A stretch of DNA of 64,000 bases from Archangium sp. (GCA_035910535.1 JAMHXF010000097.1:14295-78294), one strand, 5' to 3'. Shown: positions 11,139 to 33,816, counted from the first letter of the stretch. Notes: a model not told the origin generated them from the letters alone. Numbers and translations are program-made.

Positions 11139-11375
11139 ATGGCCATCTTGAACATCACCTACCAGGGCTTGTCGGCTGACTACGGCTTCGAGCTCGACGC
11201 CAACCTGTCTGACGCCGACGTGCGCCGCGTGGCCGTGGAGATCGTCCGCGCCGGCAACGTGCCCGGCTTGAACCTGCCGCACCTGGGCGACGATGCCTTC
11301 GCGGGCTTCGTGGTCGACCGCCTCCAGGGTGGCCAGCGCATCTACCTCCGCCCGAAGGTGCCGTTCGGTGCGTGA
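11139..11375 (+). CDS. 78-aa small protein, candidate beta-grasp / ubiquitin-like or carrier protein (C-terminus ...RPKVPFGA)
   Basis: Strong RBS AGGAGGAGGA ends 5 nt before the ATG at 11139. Its TGA stop (11373..11375) is overlapped by the GTG start of the ThiF-like gene. The strand-helix-strand pattern (ILNITYQG / ADYGFELD / SDADVRRVAVEIVRAG / FVVDRL / RIYLRP) was judged by eye only. Confidence 0.6.
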   Translation: MAILNITYQGLSADYGFELDANLSDADVRRVAVEIVRAGNVPGLNLPHLGDDAFAGFVVDRLQGGQRIYLRPKVPFGA

Positions 11376-11949
11376 GCAGCGAGTCGTCTTCTGCGGCGTC
11401 GGGGCGCTCGGCTCCAGCGCCGCAGTGCTGTGCCGCAACCTCGACGCCACGCTGGTCTTCGTCGACTTCGATCGCGTGGAATCGAAGAACCTGCTCTCGC
11501 AGGCCTACGTGAAGCAGTCGGTCGGCAAGAACAAGGCAGAGGCGCTCAAGGCGCAGTTGCTGAACTTTCACGGCGTGAAGGCCGAGTCGTTCGGCGTACG
11601 GCTCACCACCGACAACGTGGCGACGCTGTGCGCGAAGGCCTCGTTGCTCGTCGACTGCTTCGACAACGCAGCGTCACGACAGCTGCTCTCTGAGTATTCG
11701 CGCAAGGCGAACGTGCCGTTGCTGCACGCCGCCGTGAGCGGCGACGGGACGTTCGGCCTCGTTCGCTGGGACGAGCGCTTCAAGCCCGACGCAGAAGACG
11801 TCGCAGGTCAGGCCACGTGTGAAGGCGGCGAGCACCTGCCGCTCATCGGGTTGTTGAGCGCCACCGTCGCGCGCGCGATTCAGGACTTCCTGAAGGCCGG
11901 CGTGCAGCGCGATTCGATGGTCGGCCTCGCGGCCGTCACGCCGACGTAG
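11368..11949 (+). CDS. minimal ThiF/MoeB/E1-like adenylyltransferase (about 193 aa)
   Basis: VVFCGVGALGSSAAVLC (GxGxxG), VDFDRVESKNLLSQ (ThiF DxDxVexSNLxRQ with R replaced by S), GKNKAEA, VDCFDNAASRQLL. The GTG at 11368 lies within GTGCGTGA, overlapping the upstream stop. The track's ATG at 11293 would overlap the small gene by 83 nt. Confidence 0.8.
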   Translation: MREQRVVFCGVGALGSSAAVLCRNLDATLVFVDFDRVESKNLLSQAYVKQSVGKNKAEALKAQLLNFHGVKAESFGVRLTTDNVATLCAKASLLVDCFDNAASRQLLSEYSRKANVPLLHAAVSGDGTFGLVRWDERFKPDAEDVAGQATCEGGEHLPLIGLLSATVARAIQDFLKAGVQRDSMVGLAAVTPT

Positions 11950-12435
11950 CTAACCGCCGACGTTGGCCCAGAAGTCGTCGCAGCCACCGCTGCCGTTCTT
12001 CAGCGCGCCTTCTTCGAACTCGTATGGGCTCGAGCAGTCGACGACCGAGCAGACCTTCTGCCTCGGCCATGACAGCTCGATGTGCCCAAGCGGACGAATG
12101 AGGCGGTAACCGACCATGCCCGCGTCGCCCGGCGCCGACACGCGCCCCAACCCGCCGCCCGGGTATGAGTCGGCGCGACCCGGCGCCTGGAAGATGAGCT
12201 CGACGCCTTGATCGACGTCACCCGCGTACGGCGGGTCGAAGAAGAAGCTCACCGACGAGAACGTCGAGTTGCCGCCCGTGCAGGTGACTTGAACTGCGCC
12301 GTTGCCGTGGGAGTTGTCGTCGTAGCTGCACAGACACTCACCGAGGCCACGGCCCGCCCGTTCTGAAGCCGTGAAGACGATCTCGTCGGCGCGTGGGCAG
12401 CCGAACAACGCGAGACACAGCCACGCCCACCTCAC
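11950..12435 (-). CDS. Cys-rich lipoprotein (about 161 aa)
   Basis: GTG at 12435 gives VRWAWLCLALFGC (lipobox). GTGA overlaps the stop of the VWA gene. Eight further Cys. The upstream part of the track ORF (to 12615) overlaps the VWA gene and I reject it. Confidence 0.7.
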   Translation of the reverse strand: MRWAWLCLALFGCPRADEIVFTASERAGRGLGECLCSYDDNSHGNGAVQVTCTGGNSTFSSVSFFFDPPYAGDVDQGVELIFQAPGRADSYPGGGLGRVSAPGDAGMVGYRLIRPLGHIELSWPRQKVCSVVDCSSPYEFEEGALKNGSGGCDDFWANVGG

Positions 12436-13829
12436 GACGGCACCAACTGCGGAGCGATCTTCTCGAGCTCGGACAAGCTCGTCACCGTCACCACCTGCGT
12501 CACGGCGCGCGAGTAGTTCGTCATCTCGCTGTCGCCGAAGCCCCAGTTCTGCTTCGGCTCGGTACAGATCCACACCACGCGCCTGGCCTTTCTTTTCAGA
12601 TCTTCGAGAGCCCACACGTTGGCGGAGTTGAAGTTGTTACGCCCGTCTCCGATGACGAAGACCGTCGTCTTGCGGCTCACGGAGCCGAGGTACGACTTCG
12701 CGAACGTCGCCAACGTATGGCCGTAGTTCGAGTTCGACGACATCGAGATGACGTCGCCCGACAACGCAGCCTCGAGCGCCGCTTCCGGCTTCGTGCCCTT
12801 GAAGTGCTTCGTCACCTCGCCGAGCTCCGAGACGAAGATGAAGCTGCGCACGCGATTGAAGAGCGACTGCAGACACCACGTGAAAATCAGCATCAGCCGC
12901 GACGCGTTTCGTACCGAGTCGCTCACGTCACACAGCACGATGACGTCAGGGCGCTGCGGCCTCCGCGTGCGGAACTGCGGCACCATCGGTACGCCGCCCG
13001 AGGTGAGGTTCTTTCGCAGCGTGCGACGCGGGTTGAGCTGCCCTTTCCGTTTGCTGCGCTGCCGACGAATGAGGCGCGCCTTCAGCTTCTCGGCGAGCGC
13101 GCGCACCGAGCGCTGCGCGATCTCGACCTCTTGCCGCGAGAGCGTATGCAACGCCTTGTCGTCGACGCCGGCGGTGGCCTTCTTGAGCCTCGCGTTCGAC
13201 TGTCGCTGCACTTCGGCGCGCGCCTCTTCTTCGATGCGCCGCAGCGCGCTGCCGAGGTGCTGACTGACGACCTCGATGCCACGCCCCGACATGCCGCGCG
13301 CCGCGAGCTCCCGGCCGATGCTCTCGAGGTCGCTGCGCATTGACTCGGCGCCGGCCGCGCTGGCGAGCCGACGACTGTAGAAGCCGGTCTGCAGTGCGTT
13401 CTGAATTCTTGAGAAGTCGAGCTGCAGCGACGCCTGACGGAAGATCTGCGCCAGGCGCGCGCGATCGCCCGACATCGCGGCCTCGGTGAGCGGGCTCAAT
13501 TGCCCCGCGAGGCGCTCCATCATCCAGACGATCATCTTCCGCTCGTCTTCGCCCAGCAGCCCCTCTTCTTCGATGCGCTTCATGAGCGACTGCTCGATGT
13601 TGGCCAGCGTTCGCGACGCACCCGAGAAATAGAAGTCGAAGGCCTTGTCGAACACCGCCGCGTCTTGAGCGCGCTTGCAGAGCGTCGCCTTCAACGCGGC
13701 GCGGGTGACGTCGCGCTCCTCGAGGCCGATCTCCGCGAGCGCCTGCACGGCGTCTTTTGCTTCGCTCACGGCGACCTTCAAGCCGTTCTGGCGGAGCACT
13801 TCGACGAACTCGACGACGCGCGCCTCCAT
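12432..13829 (-). CDS. CoxE-like von Willebrand factor A (VWA) domain protein
   Basis: 465 aa. The helical N-terminus MEARVVEFVEVLRQNGLKVAVSEAKDA is typical of CoxE-type VWA proteins. The MIDAS motif is in VIVLCDVSDSV. No MoxR/CoxD ATPase lies adjacent. Confidence 0.85.
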   Translation of the reverse strand: MEARVVEFVEVLRQNGLKVAVSEAKDAVQALAEIGLEERDVTRAALKATLCKRAQDAAVFDKAFDFYFSGASRTLANIEQSLMKRIEEEGLLGEDERKMIVWMMERLAGQLSPLTEAAMSGDRARLAQIFRQASLQLDFSRIQNALQTGFYSRRLASAAGAESMRSDLESIGRELAARGMSGRGIEVVSQHLGSALRRIEEEARAEVQRQSNARLKKATAGVDDKALHTLSRQEVEIAQRSVRALAEKLKARLIRRQRSKRKGQLNPRRTLRKNLTSGGVPMVPQFRTRRPQRPDVIVLCDVSDSVRNASRLMLIFTWCLQSLFNRVRSFIFVSELGEVTKHFKGTKPEAALEAALSGDVISMSSNSNYGHTLATFAKSYLGSVSRKTTVFVIGDGRNNFNSANVWALEDLKRKARRVVWICTEPKQNWGFGDSEMTNYSRAVTQVVTVTSLSELEKIAPQLVPS

Positions 13830-13832
13830 GAT

Positions 13833-14501
13833 TCAGCCTCGCTTCAAGATTCCGTTTTTCGGAAACGACTTGATGCTCTTACCGGCCGCCAGCGGGAGCA
13901 CACGAATCCACTGAACGGGGCCGGTGTCGGTCTTCATCACTCCGAAGGTCTCGTCTTTCACGAAGCCGAGGCCGGCGAACGCTGAAGCCACGGGCGTGTT
14001 CCACACACCGAAACCGGCCTGCGATTCGTGGCGCATCGCGCGGTGCACCTTCGCGAGGAAGCCGTCTCTCTTCACGAACTCGAGCGGTTTCGCCGTCGTG
14101 CCGAAGGGGTTCGCTTCGTCGTACACGCGGTACCGCGCGCCCTCGAACTCCTCGATGTTCGCGAACGACAACACCGAGCCGCTCCTGGGGATCTGCGCCG
14201 ACCAGAAGACCATTCGCGCCAGCGGCATCAGCAAGTCGCTCGTCCACGCTTCGGGCGGATCTTCTTCACCGTCTTCCACGCCGATTCGCAGAACGAACTC
14301 GATGCCGAAGCCGCTGCGCTTCGGGTCTTTCGTTTCTTTGCCCGCGAACTCAGAGAGGCCGGTGGTGACGACCTCCCAGTGCTTCTTGACGCGTCGCCAA
14401 CCGATGAAGCGAAGCGGATCGCGCAGCGGAACGACATCGGGCTGAAACGTCATGCCAGTGAACTCGCCTGACTCGTTCAACAGCTCGAAGACGTTGCTCA
14501 T
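13833..14501 (-). CDS. SUFU (suppressor-of-fused) domain protein, paralog 2
   Basis: WEVVTTGLSEFAGKETKDPKRSGFGIEFVLRIGVEDGEEDPPEAWTSDLLMPLARMVFWS aligns by eye with human SUFU WHYISFGLSDLYG...GPSGFGFELTFRLKRETGESAPPTWPAELMQGLARYVFQS. Confidence 0.85.
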   Translation of the reverse strand: MSNVFELLNESGEFTGMTFQPDVVPLRDPLRFIGWRRVKKHWEVVTTGLSEFAGKETKDPKRSGFGIEFVLRIGVEDGEEDPPEAWTSDLLMPLARMVFWSAQIPRSGSVLSFANIEEFEGARYRVYDEANPFGTTAKPLEFVKRDGFLAKVHRAMRHESQAGFGVWNTPVASAFAGLGFVKDETFGVMKTDTGPVQWIRVLPLAAGKSIKSFPKNGILKRG

Positions 14502-15196
14502 GGGTTTCCGCGGTCGAAAACTCCGTCAGCGGGGAACGTTTCGATCGTCGTGTCGCCACGGAGCGGCAGACAACGCAGCCACTGCACCGGCCCGTTCGCG
14601 GTCTGCATAACGCCGAACGTCGGATCATTCACGAAGCCAAGGCCCGCCACCTGCCACGCGAGCGCCGTGTTCCAGATACCGAAGCCAGGCTGCGGCGGAG
14701 CTTCATCGTGACCCAACCGCGCTGAACGCAGCCCTTTGTGAACGCGCGCGAGAAAGCCGTCGTCATTGGCGAAGTCCAACGGTCGCGCAGGCGTTGCGAA
14801 CGGATTGACTTCGTCGAACACGCGGTACTCGTTGCCGCCGAAGGTCTTCGACTGATCGAACTTCAGCACCGTGCCGTGCGCCGGCACCTGCGACGACCAG
14901 AACACCATGCGTCCGAGCGGTTGAAAGAGCTTCGTCGTCCACCCGTCGGGCGGCTCGTTCTCGCCGTTGCGCGCGGTGACTCGAATCACGAACTCGACAC
15001 CGAAGCCGCTTCGATTCGGGTCTTTCGTTTCCTTCGTCGCGAATTCAGAAAAGCCGGTGGTGATGATTTCCCAGACGTTGTCGACGCGACGCCACCCGAT
15101 GTACCGGAGCGGATCGCTGATGGGCGGAAGTCCCGGAGTGAACGCAATGCCGGTGAATTCGCCGCTCGGGTTCAACAGCTCGAGAACGTTGCTCAT
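14498..15196 (-). CDS. SUFU (suppressor-of-fused) domain protein, paralog 1
   Basis: Roughly 60% identical by eye to the downstream paralog. It carries the same GFSEF...SGFGVEFVIR...PPDGW...LGRMVFWS core. ATGA overlaps the next gene. Confidence 0.85.
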   Translation of the reverse strand: MSNVLELLNPSGEFTGIAFTPGLPPISDPLRYIGWRRVDNVWEIITTGFSEFATKETKDPNRSGFGVEFVIRVTARNGENEPPDGWTTKLFQPLGRMVFWSSQVPAHGTVLKFDQSKTFGGNEYRVFDEVNPFATPARPLDFANDDGFLARVHKGLRSARLGHDEAPPQPGFGIWNTALAWQVAGLGFVNDPTFGVMQTANGPVQWLRCLPLRGDTTIETFPADGVFDRGNP

Positions 15197-15369
15197 GTCA
15201 GACCTCCAAATAGCGCCAGCGGATCGACCGAGTTCGGCAAGTCGATGACCTCACCATCGCAGAAGTTCGATGATCGCCCAGTCACTGTTCTTCAACTTCG
15301 TGCGTTCATCGAGAAGAAGCGACCGCGCACCTTCGAGGCACAGCGGCATTCCGCGCTTCGCCGACCTGC

Positions 15370-16626
15370 TCACCGCGTGAAGGCCATCACGGCCTCGATG
15401 TGATGCGTCTGTGGAAACAAGTCGAACAGCTGCAACGCGATGGGGTGAAAGCCGTGCTCCCCGAGATCCTTCGCGTCGCGCGCGAGGCTCGTCGGATCGC
15501 ACGCGACGTACACCACACGCGAAACCAACAACCCGTTCGCCCACGAGCCGACGCCCGGCGCACCCGACCGCGGAGGGTCGACGAGCAGGCGATCGAACCG
15601 CTCGCGCTCATTCACGAGGCCTTTGGCAATTTTCTCTGAATCGCCCTGCACGAAGCGCACGTTGCTCACGCCGTGCTTCAACGCCGCGTTCTGCGCGAGC
15701 GCGACTGACAGCGGGAACGACTCAACCGCCACCACCTGGTCAGCATGCGACGCGAGCCGGAACGTGAAGTTGCCGTTGCCTGAATACAGCTCGAGCACGC
15801 GCTCACTGCCGTGCACGTCGAGCAGCTCGAGGCTCTGTGAGACGAGTCGGCGGTTCACCTCGGCGTTCGCCTGCGCGAAGCCGTCAGGGCGGTGCAGCAC
15901 GCCTTCTTCATCGAGCACCGGCTTGCCGAGCAGCTCCACCGCGCCCTTGCCGTCTGCGGGGTGAACAATCGCACCGTCGATCAGCCCTTCACGAAGCGCG
16001 GCGGTCAACGCGTCACGATGCCGAGGCCGAATCTGCGCCTTCGCATGAAGGCTGATCGCGACGCGCCCTTCGCACTCGAGCAGTCGAACTTCCTCCAGCT
16101 CTTTCAACGTCGCCGCGCCCAACGCTGTCGCGAGTCGTCCAGGGAAATTGGTCAACGCAGGCGTCAACGCAGGGCACGACTTCACCGCGACGCGCTCGTG
16201 CGATTTGCGCCCGTGAAAACCCAGCGCGTCTTTGACCGGGTGCAGCACCGCGCGACGCCGGTACCCCACGGCCTGCGGCGACGGCACCGTCGGCAACAAC
16301 GCGTACGCGTCGCGCGCGATGCCGCCGACGTGCTCGAGCGCAGAGACGACGATCTCCGTCTTCTGTCGGAGCTGCTCGTCTTCCTGGAGGTGCATCCAAT
16401 CGCAGCCGCCGCAGCTCGAGGCCACGGGGCAGACGGGCGCTCGTCGTGACGCGCTCGGTTCGAGGACGTCGAGCACTTCGCCGCGCAGCGCCTTGCCCTG
16501 CTCCGTCACTTCGACGAGCACGCGCTCACCCGGCAACGCGCCCGCAATGAAAACGGCGCGGCCTTCGTGAGGGGCCACGCCGTCACCTGACTTCGACAAC
16601 CGCTCGACTCGCAGCTCCAGCTTCAC
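15370..16626 (-). CDS. TRAM-domain, Fe-S cluster-containing RNA (uracil-C5)-methyltransferase (RlmD/RumA/TrmA family)
   Basis: N-terminal TRAM segment (VERLSKSGDGVA), Cys cluster CPVASSCGGCDWMHL, SAM-methyltransferase motifs LELYSGNGNF and LLVDPPRSGA, and catalytic YVACDP. Confidence 0.9.
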   Translation of the reverse strand: MKLELRVERLSKSGDGVAPHEGRAVFIAGALPGERVLVEVTEQGKALRGEVLDVLEPSASRRAPVCPVASSCGGCDWMHLQEDEQLRQKTEIVVSALEHVGGIARDAYALLPTVPSPQAVGYRRRAVLHPVKDALGFHGRKSHERVAVKSCPALTPALTNFPGRLATALGAATLKELEEVRLLECEGRVAISLHAKAQIRPRHRDALTAALREGLIDGAIVHPADGKGAVELLGKPVLDEEGVLHRPDGFAQANAEVNRRLVSQSLELLDVHGSERVLELYSGNGNFTFRLASHADQVVAVESFPLSVALAQNAALKHGVSNVRFVQGDSEKIAKGLVNERERFDRLLVDPPRSGAPGVGSWANGLLVSRVVYVACDPTSLARDAKDLGEHGFHPIALQLFDLFPQTHHIEAVMAFTR

Positions 16627-17006
16627 TTCTTCTGGGGCACTTCTGCGTCAGGCAGCTCGGCGCGCAGCCGATCGACGAAGCGCGCGAGGCGGCCCTTCTT
16701 TTCTTCGTCGACGTCGACGAACTCGATGCCCATGCCGGGCACCTGGTCGCTGTTCGGGTCAGGCGGGTGCACCCGAATCACGCGGCCCGTGAGATCGAAC
16801 GGAAACGCCGCGTCAGGGAGCGAGACGATCAACCGCACGATGCTGCCCACCGCCAGCGGGTTGCGCGTGTTGATGAACATGCCGCCGCGGCTGATGTTCA
16901 CCGCCCAGTCGGTGATGAAGCCATCGACGGTGCGGTACGCAACCAACAACTCGTGCTGCAGTCGCTCGGCCTTCCGTATCGGCTGGGAGCCCTTGTCGTC
17001 GCTCAT
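16623..17006 (-). CDS. PilZ domain protein (c-di-GMP receptor family)
   Basis: RKAERLQ (RxxxR) and DWAVNISRGGMFI (D/NxSxxG) motifs. 127 aa. 4-nt overlap with the methyltransferase gene. Confidence 0.85.
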   Translation of the reverse strand: MSDDKGSQPIRKAERLQHELLVAYRTVDGFITDWAVNISRGGMFINTRNPLAVGSIVRLIVSLPDAAFPFDLTGRVIRVHPPDPNSDQVPGMGIEFVDVDEEKKGRLARFVDRLRAELPDAEVPQKK

Positions 17007-23886: not shown

Positions 23887-26800
23887 TCACGAATCGAAGC
23901 CGGCCCTGAGGGTGTGCCCTGCGCTCGAGAGAGCGAGATCGCCGCGGGCATTGAGTTCAGCGACGGCAGCGACAATTCCATTCCTGAAGCGAGCCGTCGC
24001 AGCGCCGAGGCCGAAAGCATCGCGGAGGAGCGCTACGAGTTCGTCTTCATTCAGCCCAGCGTTCAGTTGGAGCACAGCGCGGACCCCCGCGACGTATTCG
24101 CTCGGCGCGATCAACTCGGCGTTCGAATCCGCGTCGCGCCGATTCCTCGGCATGACCCGGCGCCCAGCAAGCGCCCACCAGGGATCTCGGTGTTCAATGC
24201 CGCTCGCATTGCGGAAGTCACGTAACGCGCTGGCGAGTCGCTCAACGATCCGAGCCCCAGCCCGCCGATGCCCGAAGGCATCCATGAGACGATCTCTGAG
24301 TACCTCGTCATGAACTGGCCCCTCGACCTCAAGAACACTGCGACACAACCCTGCGATCGTCGATTGTGTTGCATCAACCAGCTCGCCCTGTTGCGGTGAC
24401 AACGCGGCTGTCCGATACGGCTCGAAAATCGGCGCAGCCAGCGTACGTCTGCTGGGCGAAGTCCCCTTCTGAACAGGAGCAACCGGCGGTGGACCAACGC
24501 TCTCGCTCGATTCGCCGACCAGTCGGGCAACGTTTGCGCCTGCAGCGGGCGTTGCCTTGAATAGCCGTGCCTTCTGCCTCGATTCTTCGATCAGCTTCAG
24601 CAACCGCTCCGTTTGTTTCTTGCGGTCATGCCACCAGTCGGTGCTCCAGAGCCTGTGCAGTTCCCAACCGAGACCGCGCAGCACTTCCTCTCGGAGCCGG
24701 TCCCGATCGCGTGCCGACTCCGCAGAGTGGTACGCGACGCCATCGCACTCAATGCCACACACGAAGCGACCTGAAACCTCCGTATCCGTGACACCGAAGT
24801 CGATGCGGTAACCAGAAACACCAACCTGAGGAACCAAGTCGATACCGTGAGCCGCAAGCGCGGTCAGAACCTCTTGTTCGAAAGGAGATTCCGTCTGCGC
24901 CAGAGCCATTACGAGCGGGCCCGCGACGAGCTCACCGGTCTCTGCGTACTTCAAGAAATCCCTGAGAAGCACAGCACCACGCATCTGCTCACCAACGACC
25001 ATGTCGTCGGCACGCATCGAAGAAAACACACGCATTTGCTCACGTGCACGTGTCGCGAGAACGTTCAACCGACGCCAGCCCGATTGGCCGCTCAGCGGAC
25101 CAAGATTGTACCGAATCTTGCCGTCGAGACCTTTCCCGTAGGTAACGCTCAAGAACACAACGTCCCGCTCGTCGCCTTGAATGCTTTCAAGGTTCTTCAC
25201 GAAGAACGGCTCGGGCTTGTCGAGAGCGAGGAACTCGTCGAGTTGTGGGTTCGTGCGTCGCTCGCCCTCCAGCAGATCCTGAATACGAAGCTGCTGCGGC
25301 CGAGAGAACGTTCCGACGCAAAGTGATCTGTTCGGATGTTCGCGCGCGTGCCGGACAACCGCAGCAACCACCGCCGCGGCTTCTTTTGTGTTGGTCCCCT
25401 TCCCTTCGTACTGAGCACCAGCGACGTGTTCGAAACTCAGGCCAAACCTGCTCACGTTGCGATCAACGCTCGGAAAAGTGAGTAGAGAAGATTCGTAGAA
25501 GTTCTGATTCGAGTACGCGATCAACGACTCATGTCGGCTCCGGTAGTGCCATCGAAGCTGCGCGCCATAGAGTCCAGCCGCCTGGGCCAATTCGAGAATG
25601 CTCTCGAGATCTTCAAACAACGGTTCTCCATCTTCGTCTTCTTTGACCTCGATCTCCCCAAGTTGAGCCGCAAAGAAGTTCGTCGGCGGGAGTTGCTTGG
25701 GGTCGCCGACGACGACCAACTGCTGCCCCCGGGCAATCGAACCAAGAGCATCCTCACAAGTGAGCTGGGATGCCTCGTCGAAGATGACGATGTCGAACTG
25801 ATGCTTGGTATCGAGTGTCTGCGCGACCGTCATGGGACTCATCAAGAAGCACGGCTTGATGGCGCGGACCGCGTGGAACCCACGCTGAACCAACTGCCGA
25901 ACAGGTTGATGGCCCCGCATGCGCGACATCTGATCGCGGAGAAACTTTGATTCGCCTGCTGCGGAAAGCAACTGCTCTTGAGTCCGTCGGCGCAGCCGGG
26001 TGGCGACCGCGCGCTTGTTACTTTCCAATGCTTGCTTATCCAGCACGCAGAACTCATTCACTTGCGCAGAGTGCGCGCCCCCTTCGAACCGCCCAAGGAG
26101 CGGGGCCTGTGACTCGACGTCATCGATCCATACCTCGAGGAAACGACGCTCAAACGCAGCGCCAAGATCCGCCCACGCGAGGTCACCCGACACCGCCGCT
26201 TCGACAAGAGACCGTGCAGAGGTGGCGACGGCCTTGGAGAGTGCATCCTGATGGTTCTGCATCTCTCGCCATCGCTCGCGACTGCCCTCGAGCGCTTCAA
26301 TTTGTTCATTCAACTGAACGAACGTTGACCTTGCGAAAAAGGTAGCGGGCCAGCCACCAGCCTCTTGGATGCTGGACCAAAGAGCACGCGCCTCGGTGAC
26401 CTTGACGGCCAACTGCTGAAGCGAATCCACGTTCGGCGCCGGTGTTTCTGCGACAGAGAATACCGAGGGAGAGAGCGACAGCCTGGCGGCTGTATCTCTG
26501 AACGAGTTGCCCCAACGCACCCAGTCCATCAAAGCAGTCCAGTCACTGTCAGCACCGCGCCAAAGCCGTCCGAAAAACCGTGCCGACGCATCACTTCCAT
26601 TGAGCGACACTCTCTCGGCCCTCGCGCGGAGCAGAGTGGAGACCCGCTGTCCCGCATCTAACGCGCCTCGCCAAGCTGACTCAGACATTGAGGCCTTCAA
26701 CTGGCGTCGAGCAGCCCGCCAAGTGCCGCTAAGCCAGGCCCAGATACTGCGACCACGTTCGATGACGATGGTCACTGCAGTCTGTAATTCCTCAGGTCGA

Positions 26801-28611
26801 GCAGACGACTTCAGTAACCCTCGCGTCTCATTCTCCAATACGGCGAACATTCGACCTCGTTCGACGACCTGCAGCGCATGAGCAGACGCCTCCATCCAGT
26901 CGGGAGCATTGGCAACAGTCGCAGGAATGCCGGGTGCGCCAGAAAGCACGGCTGCGAGTTCCGTCAGCGACTCCGCTGCCGTATTCAGTGACTGCGCCTT
27001 GAACCCGAACTGAGCTTCGACGATTCGTTCCTCTTGAATGATCGAGCGAACGAGAGGCCCGATGCGATCAAGCGCAGCAAAGAGGACGTCGCGACGCTCA
27101 CGCGGGAACTGTTGGACAGAAGAACCTCGCCACGGATGGTCAGCGAGAGAACATCCAAGCCGAGTGACCGTTCCAGACAGTTCATCGAGAGTTCGCTTCG
27201 TCTCATCGAACTGAGCCTTCGTGACCCCTTCCGTCGGGACCGAGACCCGGATGTTTGGAACACCTTCGAGCCGAAGGAGTCGGCTCATTACTTCGAAGGG
27301 AGACATCCCAAGCGGAGAGACTGGCGAATGAACAGCCTTCGTGTAGGCAGTCAGCGTTTGTCGAACTTTCGCCAACTCTGCTTGTTGCTTCGGTTCGTCG
27401 TCGCACGACAACGACGAGGTGTCCCAAGCACGTTTCAACTCATCAAGCAGACCTTTCTTGTTCGCCTTCGTGCTGTGAATTTCAAGACAAAAATCACCGA
27501 GTCCGGCCTTACGAAGACGGTCGTAGACAACATTGAGTGCCGCCTGCTTCTCCGCAACGAACAACACCGTCTTTCCTCGAGCGAGGGCGCCAGAAATAAG
27601 ATTGGTGATTGTCTGCGACTTACCTGTACCTGGCGGGCCTTGAATGACCAGATTCCTACCTGTCTCCACGGCAGCAAGAGCACGCTGCTGCGTCGAGTCA
27701 GCATCTACAACCTGAAATGTCATTTCAGGAGGAAAACCAGCATCAAGGTCCATCCCCCGAACCTCCGGAGGGAGTGACGAAAGCGCACCGCTGTCACCAC
27801 TTCGCCGTGCGAGCAACTCGACGATCGGGTGCGCGGCAACTGCGGTTGCATTCTTCTTGAGATCCTCGTGCATCACGAATTTCTGGAACGAGAAATTCCC
27901 CAGGAGACAGGCAGCGCTGACTCGCCACCGACTATTTGAAGCGGTTTCTCCCCTCAGTTCAGAAAGCCAATCTATAACATTAAAGCTCTCGTCAGAGATC
28001 TGCTTCAACTGCACGCCATGTTGAGACTTGAGGTACTCAACAAGAGCGGGATTCACGAGCGGATCCTCCTCGCTACCGCGTACCATCCACGCACCTTTCG
28101 GGGTCCGGCTCAGCTTCGCTGGCAGCAACAGTAGCGGGGCGCGTCGTTCCTTCTGGGAACTGGTGTCTTCGAAGTAGTGGAGAAAGCCCAGAGCGAGAAA
28201 CAAGGTTGCGACACCCTGCTCTTCAAGTGACGCACGGGCGGTATCAACAAGGCGTCGAATCTTGGTGTCGAGCAAGTCCGAGGGCAGCTCGATATCGAGG
28301 AACTCGTCAACATCTTCTGGATCAAGTCCGCTCGTCACCTCCGCAAAAAAGTCCGCATCCCCAAGCGCGTCGGAAAAAGTCTCATCCGAGGGCACCGACA
28401 ACGCAGCATTGAAATCTCGCGGTGGGGTTCCTCGAAACTGCAGCGATTTACCCTGAACGATCACTCGTTCCCAGATCGCGATTGGCTGCTCTCCCGCGAT
28501 CTCCACGGCCAAAGAGCGCTTGCCACTCGAATAATTGAGCAGCCTATTTCGCATCGATGTGTCGACGAGCTTTCGCCGACACGCCTCAACAAAGTCATAC
28601 ACGGTGGCCAT
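23887..28611 (-). CDS. DUF4011-type N-terminus / SF1 (Upf1-like) helicase / Vsr-DUF559-like endonuclease / C-terminal DUF3320-like protein
   Basis: VIQGPPGTGKSQTI (Walker A), IVIFDEASQL, VVVGDPKQLPP, IQGDERDVVFLSVTY, RLNVLATRAREQMRVF. The nuclease module is SGYRIDFGV...GIECDGVAYHSAESARDRDRLREEVLRGLGWELHRLWSTDWW. I prefer the ATG at 28611 (MATVYDF...). The track ORF begins at a TTG at 28677. G+C is visibly lower than in the flanks. Confidence 0.85.
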   Translation of the reverse strand: MATVYDFVEACRRKLVDTSMRNRLLNYSSGKRSLAVEIAGEQPIAIWERVIVQGKSLQFRGTPPRDFNAALSVPSDETFSDALGDADFFAEVTSGLDPEDVDEFLDIELPSDLLDTKIRRLVDTARASLEEQGVATLFLALGFLHYFEDTSSQKERRAPLLLLPAKLSRTPKGAWMVRGSEEDPLVNPALVEYLKSQHGVQLKQISDESFNVIDWLSELRGETASNSRWRVSAACLLGNFSFQKFVMHEDLKKNATAVAAHPIVELLARRSGDSGALSSLPPEVRGMDLDAGFPPEMTFQVVDADSTQQRALAAVETGRNLVIQGPPGTGKSQTITNLISGALARGKTVLFVAEKQAALNVVYDRLRKAGLGDFCLEIHSTKANKKGLLDELKRAWDTSSLSCDDEPKQQAELAKVRQTLTAYTKAVHSPVSPLGMSPFEVMSRLLRLEGVPNIRVSVPTEGVTKAQFDETKRTLDELSGTVTRLGCSLADHPWRGSSVQQFPRERRDVLFAALDRIGPLVRSIIQEERIVEAQFGFKAQSLNTAAESLTELAAVLSGAPGIPATVANAPDWMEASAHALQVVERGRMFAVLENETRGLLKSSARPEELQTAVTIVIERGRSIWAWLSGTWRAARRQLKASMSESAWRGALDAGQRVSTLLRARAERVSLNGSDASARFFGRLWRGADSDWTALMDWVRWGNSFRDTAARLSLSPSVFSVAETPAPNVDSLQQLAVKVTEARALWSSIQEAGGWPATFFARSTFVQLNEQIEALEGSRERWREMQNHQDALSKAVATSARSLVEAAVSGDLAWADLGAAFERRFLEVWIDDVESQAPLLGRFEGGAHSAQVNEFCVLDKQALESNKRAVATRLRRRTQEQLLSAAGESKFLRDQMSRMRGHQPVRQLVQRGFHAVRAIKPCFLMSPMTVAQTLDTKHQFDIVIFDEASQLTCEDALGSIARGQQLVVVGDPKQLPPTNFFAAQLGEIEVKEDEDGEPLFEDLESILELAQAAGLYGAQLRWHYRSRHESLIAYSNQNFYESSLLTFPSVDRNVSRFGLSFEHVAGAQYEGKGTNTKEAAAVVAAVVRHAREHPNRSLCVGTFSRPQQLRIQDLLEGERRTNPQLDEFLALDKPEPFFVKNLESIQGDERDVVFLSVTYGKGLDGKIRYNLGPLSGQSGWRRLNVLATRAREQMRVFSSMRADDMVVGEQMRGAVLLRDFLKYAETGELVAGPLVMALAQTESPFEQEVLTALAAHGIDLVPQVGVSGYRIDFGVTDTEVSGRFVCGIECDGVAYHSAESARDRDRLREEVLRGLGWELHRLWSTDWWHDRKKQTERLLKLIEESRQKARLFKATPAAGANVARLVGESSESVGPPPVAPVQKGTSPSRRTLAAPIFEPYRTAALSPQQGELVDATQSTIAGLCRSVLEVEGPVHDEVLRDRLMDAFGHRRAGARIVERLASALRDFRNASGIEHRDPWWALAGRRVMPRNRRDADSNAELIAPSEYVAGVRAVLQLNAGLNEDELVALLRDAFGLGAATARFRNGIVAAVAELNARGDLALSSAGHTLRAGFDS

Positions 28612-28713
28612 TGGAGCGTTCTCGGAAAGAGATGTTCTAAACCCGAGAATACGCACGAACCGAGCCAGCAGAGACAACAGAAAAAATCTGGAGGATAAAG
28701 ACTTCGAACCGCC

Positions 28714-31700
28714 TCAATGAAAGTCGCGGCTCTCGATGGGCGCCTCGAGCGCGGCGTTCGGCTCGAAGAAACGCTCGGCGAGAACGTGGAGCACCTCGTC
28801 TTGCTTCTGCACCTTGCCTTCGACGCCCAGGAACGTGCGCGTGCGCGCCAACACCGAATACGCCTCGAACACGTCGCGCCACACGACGAGGTTGAGCAGC
28901 CCGGTCTCGTCTTCCAACGTCATGAAGGTCACGCCGCTCGCGGTGCCGGGGCGCTGTCGGCAGATGACGACGCCGGCGGCGCGCACGTATTGCCCATGCT
29001 GCAGCTGCCTCGCCTCTTCAGCGCTCTTGAGGCCCTGTGCATGAAGTCGTCGGCGAACCGGCCCTACCGGGTGACCACGCGTGCTGTGAGCCGTGCGCGA
29101 GTAGTCCCAGGAAATCGACTGCTGCACCGACAACCCGGGAAACGAGAGCTGCGGCTCGGAATCAACCGCGAGCGGCGTCGACCCGCCATGGAGCCCCTGC
29201 GCCTGCCACAACGCCACGCGCCGCGACGGCTCGATGGACTGCAGCGCCCCCGCTTCGGCCAGCAACGTGACCGACCTCGCCTGCACCCCGCTCCGCCGCA
29301 CGAGCTCGGTGACCGACTGCGAATCGCGCACGTCGCGCAACCTCGTCGCGTCTCCTTCATTGAGGCCCTTCACGAAGCGCAGCCCCATGCGCAGCGCGTA
29401 GTCGTGCTTCCCGTCGGTCGGCTCCAGCGTGCAGTTCCACTCGCTCGACTTGAGATCAATCGACAACACCTGCACGCCGTGGCGCTTCGCGTCTTCGACG
29501 AGCGTCGCCGGTGAATAGAACCCCATGGGCAACGAGTTGAGCAGCCCACACGTGAACTCCACCGGGTAGTGGGCCTTCAAGTAGCTGCCGGCGTAGCTGA
29601 TCAACGCGAACGACGCGGCGTGGCTCTCGGGGAACCCGTAGTCACCGAAGCCGCGAACCTGCGCGAACACCCGCTCGGCGAAGTCAGGCGCGATGCCGCG
29701 CGCGATCATGCCGTTGACGAACTTGTCGTGGTGGCCTTCGAGCTTGCCGTTGCGCTTCCACGCCGCCATGTCGCGCCGGAGCTGGTCTGCTTCACCCGGT
29801 GAATAGTTCGCGCCGACGATGGCGATGCGCATCACCTGCTCTTGAAACAGCGGAACGCCGAGCGTGCGGCTCAGCACCGGCTCGAGACACGGGTGCGGGT
29901 AGGTGACGGGCTCGGCGCCGTTTCTGCGTCGGAGGTACGGGTGCACCATGCCGCCGGTGATCGGCCCCGGCCGCACGATGCTCACCTGCACCACGAGGTC
30001 GTAATAGCTCTTCGGCTTGAGCCTCGGCAGCATCGACATCTGCGCGCGGCTCTCGATCTGAAACACGCCGATGGTGTCGGCCTTCTGAATCAGCGCGTAC
30101 GTCAGCGGGTCATCTTCAGGAATCGTCGCCAACGAGATCTCGCGCCCTCGATGCTTCGCGATCAGCTCGAACGACTTGTGCAGGTGCGTGAGCGACCCCA
30201 ACGCCAACAGGTCGACCTTGAAGAGCCCCAGCGTCTCGACGTCGTCCTTGCTCCACTGAATGACGGTGCGCCCCTCCATCGTCGCGTTCTCGACGGGCAC
30301 CAGCGTCGAAATCGGGTCGTGGCCGAGAATGAACCCACCAGGGTGAATCGAGAGGTGTCGCGGGAACCCTTCGAGCTCCTGGCAGATCGACATCAACAAC
30401 TCGAAGCTCTGCGCCGACGTGTCGAGGCCCACGTCTTTCGCGTAACGACCGTCAGGCGAGTCGTAGTGGTGCAGCAACTTCGCGTAACGATCGAGCTCGG
30501 TCTGCGCGACGCCGAGCGCTTTGCCGACCTCACGAACCGCCGACCGCGCGCGGTAGCTCGTCACGTTCGCCACCATCGCGGCGTGCGTACGCCCGTGCTT
30601 TTCGTAGAGGTGCTGAATCACCTCTTCACGTCGCTCATGCTCGATGTCGAGATCGATGTCCGGCGGCTCCGCGCGCTCGAGCGAGAGGAAGCGCTCGAAC
30701 AAGAAGCCCATCTTCACGGGGTCGACGGCGGTGATGCCGAGGCAGAAACACACCGCTGAGCTCGCGGCGCTGCCTCGCCCCTGACAGATGATGTCGTTGG
30801 CCTGGCAGAACTCCACCAGCTCACGCATGGTCAGAAAGTAGCCGCCGTAATCGAGCGTCTCGATCAGCTGCAGCTCCTTCTTCAGCTGCGCCGTCATCGC
30901 GTCGTTCACCACGCCCCGTCGCGCCGCGCCCTCGAAGACGAGCTGCTCGAGCCACTGCGTCGTCGACGTTCCTCCCGGCAGCTTTTCTGTCGGGTAGCGG
31001 TAGCGCAGCTCCGACATCGAAAACGTGCAGCGCGCGGCGACTTCTTCGCTGCGACGCACGAGCTCCAGGCAGTCACCGTAGCGCCCTTCGAAGAGCGACC
31101 TCGACAACGCGTGCGAGTCGTTGGCCTTCAACAGCCGCCCCGCCTCCGGCAGCGAGCGTTGGTGCCGAATACAGGTCACCACGTCTTGAAGCCGACGCTT
31201 CGAGCTGTGGTGGTAGAGCACCTCAGGCGCTGCGACGAGCGGAACGCCGAGCGCCTTCGCGCGGGCACGTTGCGCGGCTTCGGTGTCGACGTCTTCGGGG
31301 AGAAAGTGCCGCGCGATGAGGCCGTAGAGCCTGTCTCCAAACGCCGGCTGCAGCGCTTCGTGAGGGCCGTCGAGCGTCCACAAAGCGATCAGGTCTTCCG
31401 CGTGCGCTGCGACTTCGGCGCGCGACACTTCAGAGCGACCCTTCTCGCAACGCATGCGGCCCAGCGTGAGCAGTTGGCAGAGGTTCGCGTACCCACGTCG
31501 CGTCATCGCCAGCAGCACCAACGTCGCGCCGTCGTCGAGCGTCACCTCGGAGCCGACGATGAGCTTGATGCCGAGCGCCTTCGCCTTTTCGTACGCGCGC
31601 ACCACGCCGTACACCCCGTCGCGATCGGTGATGGCGATGGCCGGGCAGCCGAGCTCGTACGCCGCCTCGACCAGCTCGTCGGGGAAGCTCGCGCCCTCGA

Positions 31701-31743
31701 GGAACGAGTAGTTGCTCTTGCACCACAACGGCACGCCGCTCAT
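28714..31743 (-). CDS. dnaE2: error-prone DNA polymerase DnaE2 (ImuC)
   Basis: PHP N-terminus (MSGVPLWCKSNYSFLEGAS) and Pol III alpha core. The ATG at 31743 overlaps the imuB stop (ATGA). The track ORF starts 54 nt further upstream. Confidence 0.93.
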   Translation of the reverse strand: MSGVPLWCKSNYSFLEGASFPDELVEAAYELGCPAIAITDRDGVYGVVRAYEKAKALGIKLIVGSEVTLDDGATLVLLAMTRRGYANLCQLLTLGRMRCEKGRSEVSRAEVAAHAEDLIALWTLDGPHEALQPAFGDRLYGLIARHFLPEDVDTEAAQRARAKALGVPLVAAPEVLYHHSSKRRLQDVVTCIRHQRSLPEAGRLLKANDSHALSRSLFEGRYGDCLELVRRSEEVAARCTFSMSELRYRYPTEKLPGGTSTTQWLEQLVFEGAARRGVVNDAMTAQLKKELQLIETLDYGGYFLTMRELVEFCQANDIICQGRGSAASSAVCFCLGITAVDPVKMGFLFERFLSLERAEPPDIDLDIEHERREEVIQHLYEKHGRTHAAMVANVTSYRARSAVREVGKALGVAQTELDRYAKLLHHYDSPDGRYAKDVGLDTSAQSFELLMSICQELEGFPRHLSIHPGGFILGHDPISTLVPVENATMEGRTVIQWSKDDVETLGLFKVDLLALGSLTHLHKSFELIAKHRGREISLATIPEDDPLTYALIQKADTIGVFQIESRAQMSMLPRLKPKSYYDLVVQVSIVRPGPITGGMVHPYLRRRNGAEPVTYPHPCLEPVLSRTLGVPLFQEQVMRIAIVGANYSPGEADQLRRDMAAWKRNGKLEGHHDKFVNGMIARGIAPDFAERVFAQVRGFGDYGFPESHAASFALISYAGSYLKAHYPVEFTCGLLNSLPMGFYSPATLVEDAKRHGVQVLSIDLKSSEWNCTLEPTDGKHDYALRMGLRFVKGLNEGDATRLRDVRDSQSVTELVRRSGVQARSVTLLAEAGALQSIEPSRRVALWQAQGLHGGSTPLAVDSEPQLSFPGLSVQQSISWDYSRTAHSTRGHPVGPVRRRLHAQGLKSAEEARQLQHGQYVRAAGVVICRQRPGTASGVTFMTLEDETGLLNLVVWRDVFEAYSVLARTRTFLGVEGKVQKQDEVLHVLAERFFEPNAALEAPIESRDFH

Positions 31744-33248: not shown

Positions 33249-33816
33249 GGCACACCTCGTTCGTGCTCCACGTCGGCGCGTGACGCTTGTCTTTGAGCGC
33301 GCGCACCGTGAGCGTGAATTCACCAGGCGCCGACCCTGGCGCCGCCGCCCACGCCCGCATCGAGATCAGCGAATCCAACGAGCTGTCGTGCTCGCTCGCC
33401 TCGGTCAAGAAGAGCACCGCTGCGTCGTGCTTCTGCGCGAGGCCCAACATTCGCGAGAGCAACGGCGTCTGTACGCGGTGCCGCGCTGGCAGGTCGATCA
33501 CCACCAACCCGAACCCTCCGTGACGAACCAACATCTCACCGGCCCTGGGCAGCTCGACGGCCGGCACGCGCACCACCGCCACCGCCTTCAAGTCGACGCC
33601 GCTGGCTTCGACGTCGGGCGGGTAGAAGATCGAGTCGGGCCGAGAGACCCACGCCACCGGTTCTCCCGCGAGCTGCGCTTCACGAACTTTCAAGACGCCC
33701 GCCGTCAGCGCCGAAGGCCCCGAGAGCTCGCTGAGCGAAGCGCGCAGCGACTGCAGCGAAAACGGGTCTCCCGAGTCGCGGTGCTTCGTGCGAAGTGCTG
33801 AAAGAACGGTCGCCAT
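33226..33816 (-). CDS. imuA: ImuA-like (RecA/SulA-fold) SOS mutagenesis protein
   Basis: ATG at 33816 gives MATVLSAL.... LSELSGPSALTAGVL...AQLAGEPVAWV...GGFGLVVIDLP...LLSRMLGLAQKHDAAVLFLT resembles ImuA. It is the first gene after the LexA box. Confidence 0.65.
   Translation of the reverse strand: MATVLSALRTKHRDSGDPFSLQSLRASLSELSGPSALTAGVLKVREAQLAGEPVAWVSRPDSIFYPPDVEASGVDLKAVAVVRVPAVELPRAGEMLVRHGGFGLVVIDLPARHRVQTPLLSRMLGLAQKHDAAVLFLTEASEHDSSLDSLISMRAWAAAPGSAPGEFTLTVRALKDKRHAPTWSTNEVCRGPVGLR

What the first reader, a model, noticed from the sequence alone, without database searches (positions are those of the whole stretch)
11950..15196. Four-gene coupled operon: two SUFU-domain paralogs, a CoxE-like VWA protein without its MoxR ATPase, and a Cys-rich lipoprotein
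Seen in the sequence:
- Four same-strand genes are joined by ATGA (14498..14501), a 3-nt gap, and GTGA (12432..12435).
- The first two are about 60%-identical tandem paralogs.
- Their core aligns convincingly by eye with eukaryotic Suppressor-of-Fused: GLS(D/E)...SGFG.E...R......PP.W...L...LAR.VF.S.

Established knowledge: bacterial SUFU-family proteins have been proposed as immunity proteins of polymorphic nuclease toxins. CoxE-type VWA proteins normally work with a MoxR/CoxD AAA+ ATPase.

What is missing: no toxin, no MoxR and no secretion gene is present here. Instead, two cytoplasmic SUFU proteins and a MIDAS-containing VWA protein (DVSDS) are coupled to an exported lipoprotein.

Inference: this may be a previously undescribed sensor/adaptor or conflict-type module, not an orphan immunity array.
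Basis: partly seen in the sequence, partly recalled or inferred. Interest (0 to 1): 0.7.

Follow-up and report, generated by a model that had tools for sequence, protein, structure and literature searches.

The report
SUFU gene pair beside conserved VWA gene
The four tightly packed genes are real and correctly identified, but they are a patchwork: a VWA gene shared by many myxobacteria, with accessory genes (two SUFU-like genes left from a decayed ATP-grasp cassette, and a small lipoprotein) added on either side in one narrow lineage, so this is not a new four-part machine.

Summary
Observation confirmed. Four minus-strand genes are joined by ATGA, a 3-nt gap and GTGA. They encode two SUFU-domain paralogs (57% identical), a CoxE-type VWA protein with an intact MIDAS motif, and a Cys-rich lipoprotein.

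The "one new module" reading is not supported.
- The VWA gene is a conserved ortholog found in 55 Myxococcaceae/Archangiaceae species loci, within thiolase–CoA-transferase–PilZ–TRAM methyltransferase–[slot]–VWA. No MoxR gene was seen in the three Pfam-annotated neighbourhoods or in this window.
- In 22 of 51 loci the methyltransferase abuts VWA. Elsewhere the slot holds unrelated genes.
- SUFU genes fill the slot only in one narrow clade, as 1–3 tandem paralogs.
- In a relative the SUFU genes follow an R2K.3 ATP-grasp gene. The window keeps a frameshifted relic of that gene at 15208–15339.
- The lipoprotein follows VWA only in part of that clade. Distant relatives sit beside an LVIVD lipoprotein instead.

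Best reading: a conserved VWA gene flanked by two variable slots. The SUFU pair is what survives of an ATP-grasp–SUFU accessory cassette and probably acts as an immunity- or adaptor-like binder. The possible R2K.3–SUFU pairing is the only new lead. Interest is low to moderate.

The parts
16623..17006 (-). PilZ-domain gene. It belongs to the conserved backbone operon and is context, not part of the insert.
   Evidence: Present upstream of the methyltransferase in nearly all VWA loci.
15370..16626 (-). TRAM + U5-type RNA methyltransferase. This is the conserved upstream neighbour of the VWA gene across the Myxococcaceae/Archangiaceae loci sampled.
   Evidence: Pfam tRNA_U5-meth_tr and TRAM. It lies <=70 nt from VWA in 22 of 51 species loci.
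15208..15339 (-). Decayed relic (in-frame stop, frameshifts, 12-nt deletion) of the 3' end of an R2K.3-type ATP-grasp gene, in the spacer between the methyltransferase and SUFU-A.
   Evidence: tblastn E=2e-5 to the ATP-grasp C-terminus of L066. The DNA alignment with the 84-codon remnants in L067/L025 and with the L066 gene shows homology with indels. The L067 remnant carries a precomputed Pfam R2K_3 hit.
14498..15196 (-). SUFU-A, a cytoplasmic protein made of a SUFU N-terminal-type domain only (232 aa).
   Evidence: Pfam SUFU 37.2 bits. Its ortholog in L066 is 80% identical with dN/dS 0.26.
13833..14501 (-). SUFU-B, the paralog (222 aa). This is the copy kept in all SUFU-bearing relatives whose SUFU-VWA junction is on the contig, always 3 nt before VWA.
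   Evidence: Pfam SUFU 44.5 bits. PDB profile hit to human SUFU and Foldseek hits to SUFU only. Orthologs are 84-89% identical with dN/dS 0.14-0.17.
12432..13829 (-). CoxE-type VWA protein with an intact MIDAS motif. It is a conserved ortholog across the Myxococcaceae/Archangiaceae loci and is the ancestral resident of this locus.
   Evidence: VWA_CoxE 135.8 bits. More than 120 orthologs of about 465 aa at 63-84% identity. 55 species loci. MIDAS conserved. dN/dS 0.10-0.38.
11950..12435 (-). Small Cys-rich lipoprotein (161 aa), predicted all-beta. It is an accessory gene in the variable slot downstream of VWA.
   Evidence: Lipobox LFGC. Family of 15 representatives. Model pLDDT 88.9 with no PDB fold match. 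It follows VWA only in L082 and L083. It is absent in L005/L022 and replaced by a different lipoprotein in L025.

Best explanation
The locus is a composite, not one system.

(1) Conserved core (shown). A PilZ - TRAM/U5 RNA methyltransferase - CoxE-type VWA gene string is vertically inherited in Myxococcaceae/Archangiaceae. The VWA protein has an intact metal-ion-dependent adhesion site (MIDAS). No MoxR gene was seen in the three Pfam-annotated orthologous neighbourhoods or in this window.

(2) Two variable slots (shown). The two junctions flanking VWA accumulate unrelated genes in different lineages.

(3) Origin of the SUFU genes. In one narrow Archangium-like clade the upstream slot received a cassette with an R2K.3 ATP-grasp gene followed by translationally coupled SUFU-domain genes (types C, A, B). 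This ancestral order is inferred from one relative (L066) and from the remnants. The ATP-grasp gene then decayed: an 84-codon stub remains in L025/L067, and a frameshifted relic remains here. Individual SUFU copies were lost differentially, which left A+B in this genome.

(4) SUFU function (inferred, about 40%). The SUFU proteins are under purifying selection. They most likely act as intracellular protein binders of the immunity/adaptor type, as proposed for the SUFU superfamily. They would originally have neutralised or directed the ATP-grasp ligase, and are now kept as 'orphan' protectors or have been domesticated.

(5) Lipoprotein (shown for the arrangement; function unknown). It is a separate accessory gene in the downstream slot: an exported small all-beta protein with conserved cysteines (disulfide bonding presumed, not tested).

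The tight junctions reflect insertion into a compact operon that is probably read through from upstream, not a shared mechanism.
For: VWA orthology and synteny.

Slot statistics: the methyltransferase-VWA gap is <=70 nt in 22 of 51 loci, 71-500 nt in 16, and >500 nt in 13. Slot contents are diverse: cytochrome c, an HSP70/MreB-like protein, and ORFs read by eye (not profile-checked) as EF-G-like GTPase, LysR-type regulator and short-chain dehydrogenases.

SUFU distribution: SUFU is present in only 2 of 55 species loci (L022, L025), plus the short contigs L005, L067, L068, L082 and L083. All belong to the clade whose methyltransferase is >=87% identical to the window's.

Copy-number variation: B alone (L005, L067, L025), C+B (L022), A+B (window, L082), C+A+B (L066).

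R2K.3 link: L066 reads ATP-grasp tail (with the ELGD = ExGD motif that PMC4431377 gives as the R2K.3 signature) -> SUFU-C -> SUFU-A -> SUFU-B, with 4-nt overlaps throughout. Remnants occur in L067/L025 and a relic in the window.

SUFU subfamily size and selection: only 7 cluster representatives among 5.8 billion proteins. dN/dS is 0.14-0.26, against 0.13-0.14 for the methyltransferase.

Published background: the SUFU superfamily has been proposed as immunity proteins and protein-binding adaptors (PMC3113570, PMC3482391).

Lipoprotein: it follows VWA only in L082 and L083. Distant family members sit head-to-head with an LVIVD lipoprotein, with no VWA or SUFU nearby.
Against: - No full-length R2K.3 gene next to SUFU has been seen. 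L066 is a 1.8-kb contig cut inside the ATP-grasp gene.
- R2K.3 enzymes have never been shown to be toxic. Plasmid-borne full-length homologs have no SUFU neighbour.
- The other two contexts of the SUFU subfamily show no toxin-like gene. One is a SpoIIAA/STAS-like gene overlapping by 4 nt. The other is a 2261-aa protein that is Big_2 repeats to its very end, with no toxin domain.
- SUFU-B has stayed 3 nt upstream of VWA over dS of about 0.65 under purifying selection. That would also fit an acquired functional link to VWA within this clade.
- The VWA of the sister lineages (458 aa) sits on a long branch. This is unexplained.
Confidence: 0.6

Rival explanations
1. SUFU-A, SUFU-B, VWA and the lipoprotein form one new sensor/adaptor or conflict module. 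The cytoplasmic SUFU proteins dock on the VWA MIDAS site and signal to or from the exported lipoprotein, without a MoxR partner.
For: Tight coupling: ATGA, a 3-nt gap and GTGA. SUFU-B-VWA spacing is conserved in L005, L022, L025, L067 and L083, and the VWA-lipoprotein 4-nt overlap is conserved in L082 and L083. All four genes are under purifying selection. The MIDAS site is intact.
Against: - 53 of 55 species-level VWA loci lack SUFU, and all 55 lack the lipoprotein.
- Within the clade, each accessory gene is independently present or absent.
- SUFU-subfamily and lipoprotein-family members elsewhere have different partners.
- VWA divergence does not track SUFU presence.
- A cytoplasmic VWA and a lipid-anchored exported protein have no obvious way to make contact.
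Confidence: 0.1
2. The SUFU genes are generic cytoplasmic protein-binding regulators with no immunity history. Their adjacency to the ATP-grasp remnant is an accident of two successive insertions into the same hot spot.
For: Other members of the subfamily are coupled to a STAS/SpoIIAA-like gene or follow a Big_2 surface protein, not a toxin. Selection is purifying, not diversifying. PADLOC gives no hit. The slot clearly accepts many unrelated genes.
Against: In L066 the ATP-grasp gene and three SUFU genes are chained by 4-nt overlaps, which suggests co-translation as a unit. In every case where the ATP-grasp remnant survives (L067, L025, window/L082) it directly abuts the first SUFU gene.
Confidence: 0.25
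3. This is a classical orphan immunity array for a secreted polymorphic nuclease toxin (Imm-SUFU in the strict sense). The cognate toxin is encoded elsewhere in this genome or only in competitor strains.
For: The SUFU superfamily is predicted to provide immunity to HNH, ParB, EndoU and other toxins, and it occurs in poly-immunity loci (PMC3482391). The genes here are tandem divergent paralogs with copy-number variation.
Against: No toxin, RHS, PAAR, filamentous-haemagglutinin or secretion gene was found among the window genes scanned or in any related locus. The only decayed upstream gene is an ATP-grasp gene, not a nuclease.
Confidence: 0.1

Closest known systems
Imm-SUFU / bacterial SUFU-like proteins (Zhang, Iyer & Aravind 2011; Zhang et al. 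2012; NGO1391-type)
   Same: The same superfamily: Pfam PF05076, and sequence and fold matches to the human SUFU N-terminal domain. The proteins are standalone, cytoplasmic and about 220-230 aa. They occur as tandem paralogs with copy-number variation, like poly-immunity loci.
   Different: No adjacent nuclease toxin or trafficking gene. The only associated upstream gene, seen in relatives and as a relic here, is an R2K.3 ATP-grasp gene. The subfamily is tiny and was found only in myxobacterial genomes or unnamed metagenome contigs. Orthologs show purifying selection, not diversifying selection.
CoxD-CoxE / MoxR-VWA chaperone pairs
   Same: A VWA_CoxE domain with a helical N-terminal region and an intact MIDAS site.
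   Different: No MoxR/CoxD AAA+ gene next to it, here or in the three Pfam-annotated orthologous neighbourhoods. There is no CO-dehydrogenase or other metallo-enzyme context. Instead it is conserved next to a PilZ gene and a TRAM/U5 RNA methyltransferase gene. It gives only a weak, sub-threshold hit to the NCBIfam MadC VWA model (163 bits against a cutoff of 600).
R2K.3 ATP-grasp family (Burroughs, Zhang & Aravind 2015)
   Same: The upstream remnant in relatives hits Pfam R2K_3 and carries the family-specific ExGD motif. The family was predicted to consist of protein-modifying peptide ligases used in biological conflicts.
   Different: Linkage to SUFU genes is not mentioned in that paper, which has no occurrence of the term SUFU. 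In the window the gene is only a frameshifted relic.
vWA-MoxR ternary conflict systems (Kaur, Burroughs, Iyer & Aravind 2020)
   Same: A CoxE-like vWA protein in a multicellular bacterium, with variable neighbouring genes.
   Different: There is no MoxR, no VMAP/iSTAND third component, and no effector domain fused to the vWA C-terminus. The variable neighbours are ordinary metabolic or regulatory genes, not effectors.

Membership tests
SUFU superfamily (PF05076) | Sequence match to the SUFU profile above the curated threshold | tested here: met
   37.2 and 44.5 bits against a cutoff of 25. A profile of the subfamily hits human SUFU 1m1l at E=8.5e-10.
SUFU superfamily (PF05076) | Fold of the SUFU N-terminal domain over the whole protein | tested here: met
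   Foldseek returns 23 hits at E<=0.001, all SUFU, with 207-242 aligned columns and TM about 0.42-0.51. Caveat: the model is low-confidence (pLDDT 60, pTM 0.59).
Imm-SUFU immunity proteins of polymorphic toxin systems | Gene lies immediately downstream of a toxin gene with a C-terminal toxin domain | tested here: not met
   In the window the upstream gene is an RNA methyltransferase followed by a decayed ATP-grasp relic. In relative L066 the upstream gene is an R2K.3 ATP-grasp gene, which is not an established toxin. The Big_2 giant upstream of P0127 has no toxin domain.
Imm-SUFU immunity proteins of polymorphic toxin systems | Linked trafficking or secretion components (RHS, PAAR, filamentous haemagglutinin, T5/T6/T7SS) | tested here: not met
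   None among the window proteins scanned, and none in the related loci.
Imm-SUFU immunity proteins of polymorphic toxin systems | Tandem arrays of divergent paralogs that vary between strains (poly-immunity loci) | tested here: met
   One to three tandem paralogs (types A, B, C, 46-59% identical) in different relatives.
Imm-SUFU immunity proteins of polymorphic toxin systems | Protein neutralises a cognate toxin | not testable with these tools
   This needs co-expression or binding assays.
CoxD-CoxE / MoxR-VWA pair | VWA_CoxE domain with an intact MIDAS motif | tested here: met
   135.8 bits. DVSDS, SNSNYG and GDG are >=98% conserved in 120 orthologs.
CoxD-CoxE / MoxR-VWA pair | Adjacent MoxR/CoxD AAA+ ATPase gene | tested here: not met
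   No MoxR-type AAA+ gene in the window, nor within +/-7 kb in three annotated orthologous neighbourhoods. An unlinked MoxR elsewhere in the genome cannot be excluded.
vWA-MoxR ternary conflict systems | MoxR plus a VMAP/iSTAND third component and effector domain(s) fused to the vWA protein | tested here: not met
   The VWA domain runs to residue 457 of 465, so there is no extra C-terminal domain. No MoxR or STAND gene is nearby.
R2K.3 ATP-grasp | Intact ATP-grasp ORF with the ExGD motif | tested here: not met
   The window has only a 132-nt relic with a stop codon and frameshifts. The motif ELGD is intact in L066 and degraded to ELGG in L067/L025.
Bacterial lipoprotein | N-terminal signal peptide ending in a lipobox with an invariant Cys | tested here: met
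   By inspection: MRWAWLCLALFG|C. The Cys is invariant in 13 aligned family members. No dedicated signal-peptide predictor was available.

The most novel reading that the evidence does not exclude
The R2K.3 ATP-grasp gene and the SUFU-domain genes form a previously unreported two-component conflict or regulatory cassette. The ligase would be a protein-modifying toxin or effector. The SUFU proteins would be its cognate inhibitors or substrate adaptors, in parallel with the SUKH-domain adaptor proposed for an ATP-grasp tubulin polyglutamylase. The surviving SUFU pair would now be domesticated next to a MoxR-less CoxE-type VWA protein.
Probability: 0.2. Interest if true: 0.55.

Novelty: new member of a known kind. 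Interest (0 to 1): 0.3.

Why it matters
As proposed, a new four-part sensor/conflict module would have been notable. The evidence instead shows an ordinary pattern: accessory genes accreting at hot spots around a conserved gene.

Three smaller points remain useful.
(1) This is the first hint that R2K.3 ATP-grasp ligases, predicted but untested conflict enzymes, can be paired with SUFU-type binders. That offers a concrete toxin/antidote or enzyme/adaptor pair to test.
(2) Myxococcaceae and Archangiaceae conserve a CoxE-type VWA protein with an intact MIDAS site, no adjacent MoxR in the neighbourhoods examined, and a stable link to a PilZ protein and an RNA methyltransferase. Its function is unknown.
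(3) The lipoprotein represents a small family with a confidently predicted all-beta fold and no PDB match.

Tried and rejected
- **Big_2 giant as a toxin.** The 2261-aa Big_2 protein upstream of the most distant subfamily member (P0127) was tested as a polymorphic toxin and rejected. It is Big_2 repeats to the last residue, with no toxin domain.
- **Metagenome scan.** A scan with the SUFU alignment gave only two more subfamily loci, plus distant SUFU proteins of about 350 aa in unrelated contexts. No full-length ATP-grasp + SUFU operon was found.
- **Viral-contig scans.** Scans with the SUFU alignment and with the ATP-grasp tail found nothing.
- **Plasmid tblastn.** The ATP-grasp tail finds solo 'ATP-grasp domain-containing' genes of about 300 aa beside IS6 transposases, integrases and a macro-domain gene, with no SUFU. 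SUFU-B and the lipoprotein have no plasmid hits.
- **Family libraries.** PADLOC and NCBIfam gave nothing for SUFU or the lipoprotein. For VWA there was only a sub-threshold MadC-like hit. A literature search for MadC was uninformative.
- **Promoters, terminators and repeats.** The promoter/terminator scan was no better than shuffles. The repeat search shows only the paralog duplication and no flanking mobile-element repeats.
- **Lipoprotein fold.** The Foldseek search found no significant PDB match, only weak resemblance to avidin/YceI-like barrels.
- **VWA recombination.** I considered whether the window's VWA had been swapped in by recombination. The distance pattern fits a long branch in the 458-aa sister lineage better, but this is not resolved.


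Full report
**1. Checking the observation**

The minus strand of 11950-15196 carries four ORFs:
- 14498-15196, 232 aa, called SUFU-A here.
- 13833-14501, 222 aa, SUFU-B.
- 12432-13829, 465 aa, VWA.
- An ORF whose biologically sensible start is the GTG at 12435, giving 11950-12435 and 161 aa.

The sequence shows ATGA at 14501..14498, TGA-atc-ATG between SUFU-B and VWA, and GTGA at 12435..12432.

Pfam gives SUFU for both small proteins, at 37.2 and 44.5 bits against a gathering score of 25. It gives VWA_CoxE for the third at 135.8 bits, and nothing for the fourth. The two SUFU proteins are 57% identical over their full length.

[quoted passage not shown] An AlphaFold model is only moderate (pLDDT 60, pTM 0.59). 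Even so, every Foldseek hit with E<=0.001 is a SUFU structure, aligned over about 207-242 columns.

The fourth protein starts MRWAWLCLALFG|C. This start and lipobox are shared by its homologs.

**2. The VWA gene is the old resident of the locus**

A protein search returned more than 1,400 relatives. The best 120 are nearly all 455-479 aa (one is 445, one 447, one 496; most are 465), 63-84% identical, and where named come from Myxococcota. The MIDAS residues (CDVSDSVR, SNSNYG, IGDGRNN) are >=98% conserved among them.

A scan of one genome per GTDB species found 55 loci in Myxococcaceae/Archangiaceae, including Myxococcus xanthus at 56% identity. Annotated neighbourhoods and a tblastn survey show a conserved string: thiolase - CoA-transferase A - CoA-transferase B - PilZ - TRAM/U5 methyltransferase - [slot] - VWA.

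Among the 51 loci that hold both genes, the methyltransferase-to-VWA gap is distributed as follows:

| Gap | Loci |
|---|---|
| <=70 nt | 22 |
| 71-500 nt | 16 |
| >500 nt | 13 |

The large gaps hold unrelated genes. These include a cytochrome c, an HSP70/MreB-like ATPase, and ORFs that by eye look like an EF-G-like GTPase, a LysR-type regulator, short-chain dehydrogenases and other lipoproteins (these last were not profile-checked), often on the opposite strand.

No MoxR-type AAA+ gene appears in three annotated neighbourhoods or among the window genes scanned. So 'VWA without an adjacent MoxR' looks like a property of this orthologous group, not of this operon.

**3. The SUFU genes are a clade-specific insert with variable copy number**

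The SUFU subfamily is tiny. It has 6 cluster representatives by single-sequence search and 7 by profile search, among 5.8 billion proteins. One metagenome scan added only two more loci.

Next to VWA, SUFU occurs only in lineages whose methyltransferase is >=87% identical to the window's. Copy number varies:

| Locus | SUFU types |
|---|---|
| L005, L067, L025 | B alone |
| L068 (short contig) | B; nothing between the methyltransferase and B |
| L083 (short contig) | B; region upstream of B not on the contig |
| L022 | C + B |
| window and the near-identical L082 | A + B |
| L066 | C + A + B |

Outside that clade the subfamily has other neighbours. One is a SpoIIAA/STAS-like gene overlapping by 4 nt (L001-L004, L069). 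The other is a 2261-aa protein that is Big_2 repeats to its very end (L065).

The SUFU orthologs are under purifying selection (dN/dS 0.14-0.26), like the neighbouring methyltransferase (0.13-0.14). They are working genes.

**4. A decayed ATP-grasp gene sits in front of the SUFU array**

In L067 and L025 an 84-codon ORF with a Pfam R2K_3 hit fills the space between the methyltransferase stop codon and SUFU-B.

In L066 the contig begins inside a homologous ORF of at least 98 codons. That ORF carries ELGD, the ExGD motif that Burroughs et al. give as the hallmark of the R2K.3 ATP-grasp family (PMC4431377). It overlaps SUFU-C by 4 nt. SUFU-C overlaps SUFU-A by 4 nt, and SUFU-A overlaps SUFU-B by 4 nt.

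In the window, the 173-nt spacer between the methyltransferase and SUFU-A still aligns to this tail. The match is tblastn E=2e-5 at 15208-15339, interrupted by a stop codon and frameshifts. The DNA alignment shows indels and a 12-nt deletion.

The simplest history is one insertion of an ATP-grasp + SUFU(C, A, B) cassette into the slot. The ligase gene then eroded and SUFU copies were lost differentially. This history is inferred.

The 2015 paper predicts that R2K.3 enzymes are protein-modifying peptide ligases used in conflicts. It does not mention SUFU. Full-length plasmid homologs of about 300 aa sit alone beside IS6 transposases, integrases and a macro-domain gene. The link to SUFU is therefore new but thinly supported.

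**5. The lipoprotein is a second, independent accessory gene**

An exhaustive search found a family of 15 representatives. All are lipoproteins of roughly 160-180 aa with an invariant lipobox Cys and five further invariant cysteines; the sixth conserved Cys (window position 134) shifts by one column in one member.

With this alignment the AlphaFold model is confident (pLDDT 88.9, pTM 0.82) and all-beta. No PDB structure matches it significantly. The best Foldseek E-value is 0.3, with only vague similarity to avidin/YceI-type barrels.

None of the 55 species-level VWA loci contains a homolog. The lipoprotein follows VWA with a 4-nt overlap in L082 (same species) and in L083 (lipoprotein 59% identical, VWA 72%). 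It is absent in L005 and L022, where VWA runs straight into the convergent ThiF gene. In L025 a different lipoprotein of about 445 aa takes its place.

More distant family members (43% and 40% identical; the 40% one is from Kofleriaceae) are not near any VWA or SUFU gene. They lie head-to-head with a 330-aa LVIVD-repeat lipoprotein.

**6. Interpretation**

The four genes are physically coupled, but their histories differ:
- VWA is ancient and syntenic with the methyltransferase.
- The SUFU pair is what remains of a lineage-specific cassette.
- The lipoprotein is another lineage-specific addition.

VWA divergence does not follow SUFU presence. The window's VWA is 79-83% identical to SUFU-less lineages, but only 71-72% identical to the SUFU-bearing sister lineages. 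Those sisters carry a 458-aa form on a long branch. I therefore read the tight junctions as the result of insertion into a compact operon that is read through from upstream.

For SUFU function I commit, at about 40%, to an immunity/adaptor-type binder. It would originally have been directed at the ATP-grasp ligase. This fits the published proposal that SUFU and SUKH domains are versatile protein binders used as immunity proteins, and as adaptors for modification enzymes including an ATP-grasp polyglutamylase (PMC3113570; PMC3482391).

Against a classical polymorphic-toxin reading, no toxin, trafficking or secretion gene is present here or in any related locus.

**7. Verdict**

The annotation is right. 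The proposed four-gene module is not supported. The locus is a new, small member of a known kind: SUFU-type binder arrays, sitting beside a conserved CoxE-type VWA gene. The one lead worth following is the possible R2K.3 ATP-grasp-SUFU pairing.

The source organism is an uncultured Archangium-like myxobacterium. This is judged from the nearest named loci and from the GroES/GroEL, DnaE2/ImuB and sigma-54 genes in the window.

Noticed in passing
window 11139-11375 (+) and 11368-11949 (+): A 78-aa protein overlaps by 8 nt a minimal ThiF/E1-like adenylyltransferase (193 aa; ThiF Pfam hit and weak PADLOC E1-E2 hits). The pair is conserved in at least 8 related loci. The small protein always ends ...RPKVPFGA, with variable extra residues (GV, AA) after the Gly-Ala, which resembles a ubiquitin-like or sulfur-carrier precursor tail. 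No JAB or E2 gene was seen nearby.
   Followed up: partly
window 15208-15339 (-): A frameshifted relic of an R2K.3 ATP-grasp gene lies in the spacer between the methyltransferase and SUFU-A. Intact-looking 84-codon stubs of the same gene occur in L067 and L025.
   Followed up: yes
window 23887-28677 (-): A 1596-aa protein has DUF4011, AAA_11/AAA_12 helicase, MTES_1575 restriction-endonuclease-like and DUF3320 domains. It lies in a stretch of clearly lower G+C (0.57-0.60 against about 0.66), directly beside imuB/dnaE2-type error-prone polymerase genes (28714-33323). It is possibly a horizontally acquired nuclease-helicase.
   Followed up: partly
L005, L022, L025, L083 (VWA genes): The sister lineages carry a 458-aa VWA form on a long branch: 67-72% identical to all other orthologs, but 85-89% among themselves. 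Their flanking genes are 83-97% identical to the window's. It is unresolved whether this is accelerated evolution or allele replacement.
   Followed up: partly
L010-L064, between the methyltransferase and VWA genes: The junction upstream of VWA is a hypervariable slot across species, from 8 nt to more than 5 kb. It contains unrelated genes in both orientations. The junction downstream of VWA is variable as well.
   Followed up: yes
L084 5987-7501; L086 5998-7507: Distant members of the Cys-rich lipoprotein family are paired head-to-head, 14-22 nt apart, with a 330-aa LVIVD-repeat lipoprotein in two different lineages. This suggests that the LVIVD protein is the family's usual partner.
   Followed up: partly
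L001-L004 9531-10705 (L001 coordinates); L069 365-1530: The closest SUFU relatives outside the clade are translationally coupled (4-nt overlap) to a SpoIIAA/STAS-like protein (PF11964), with no VWA gene present.
   Followed up: no
window 49899-62147 (-): A single 4082-aa ORF made largely of TPR repeats.
   Followed up: no
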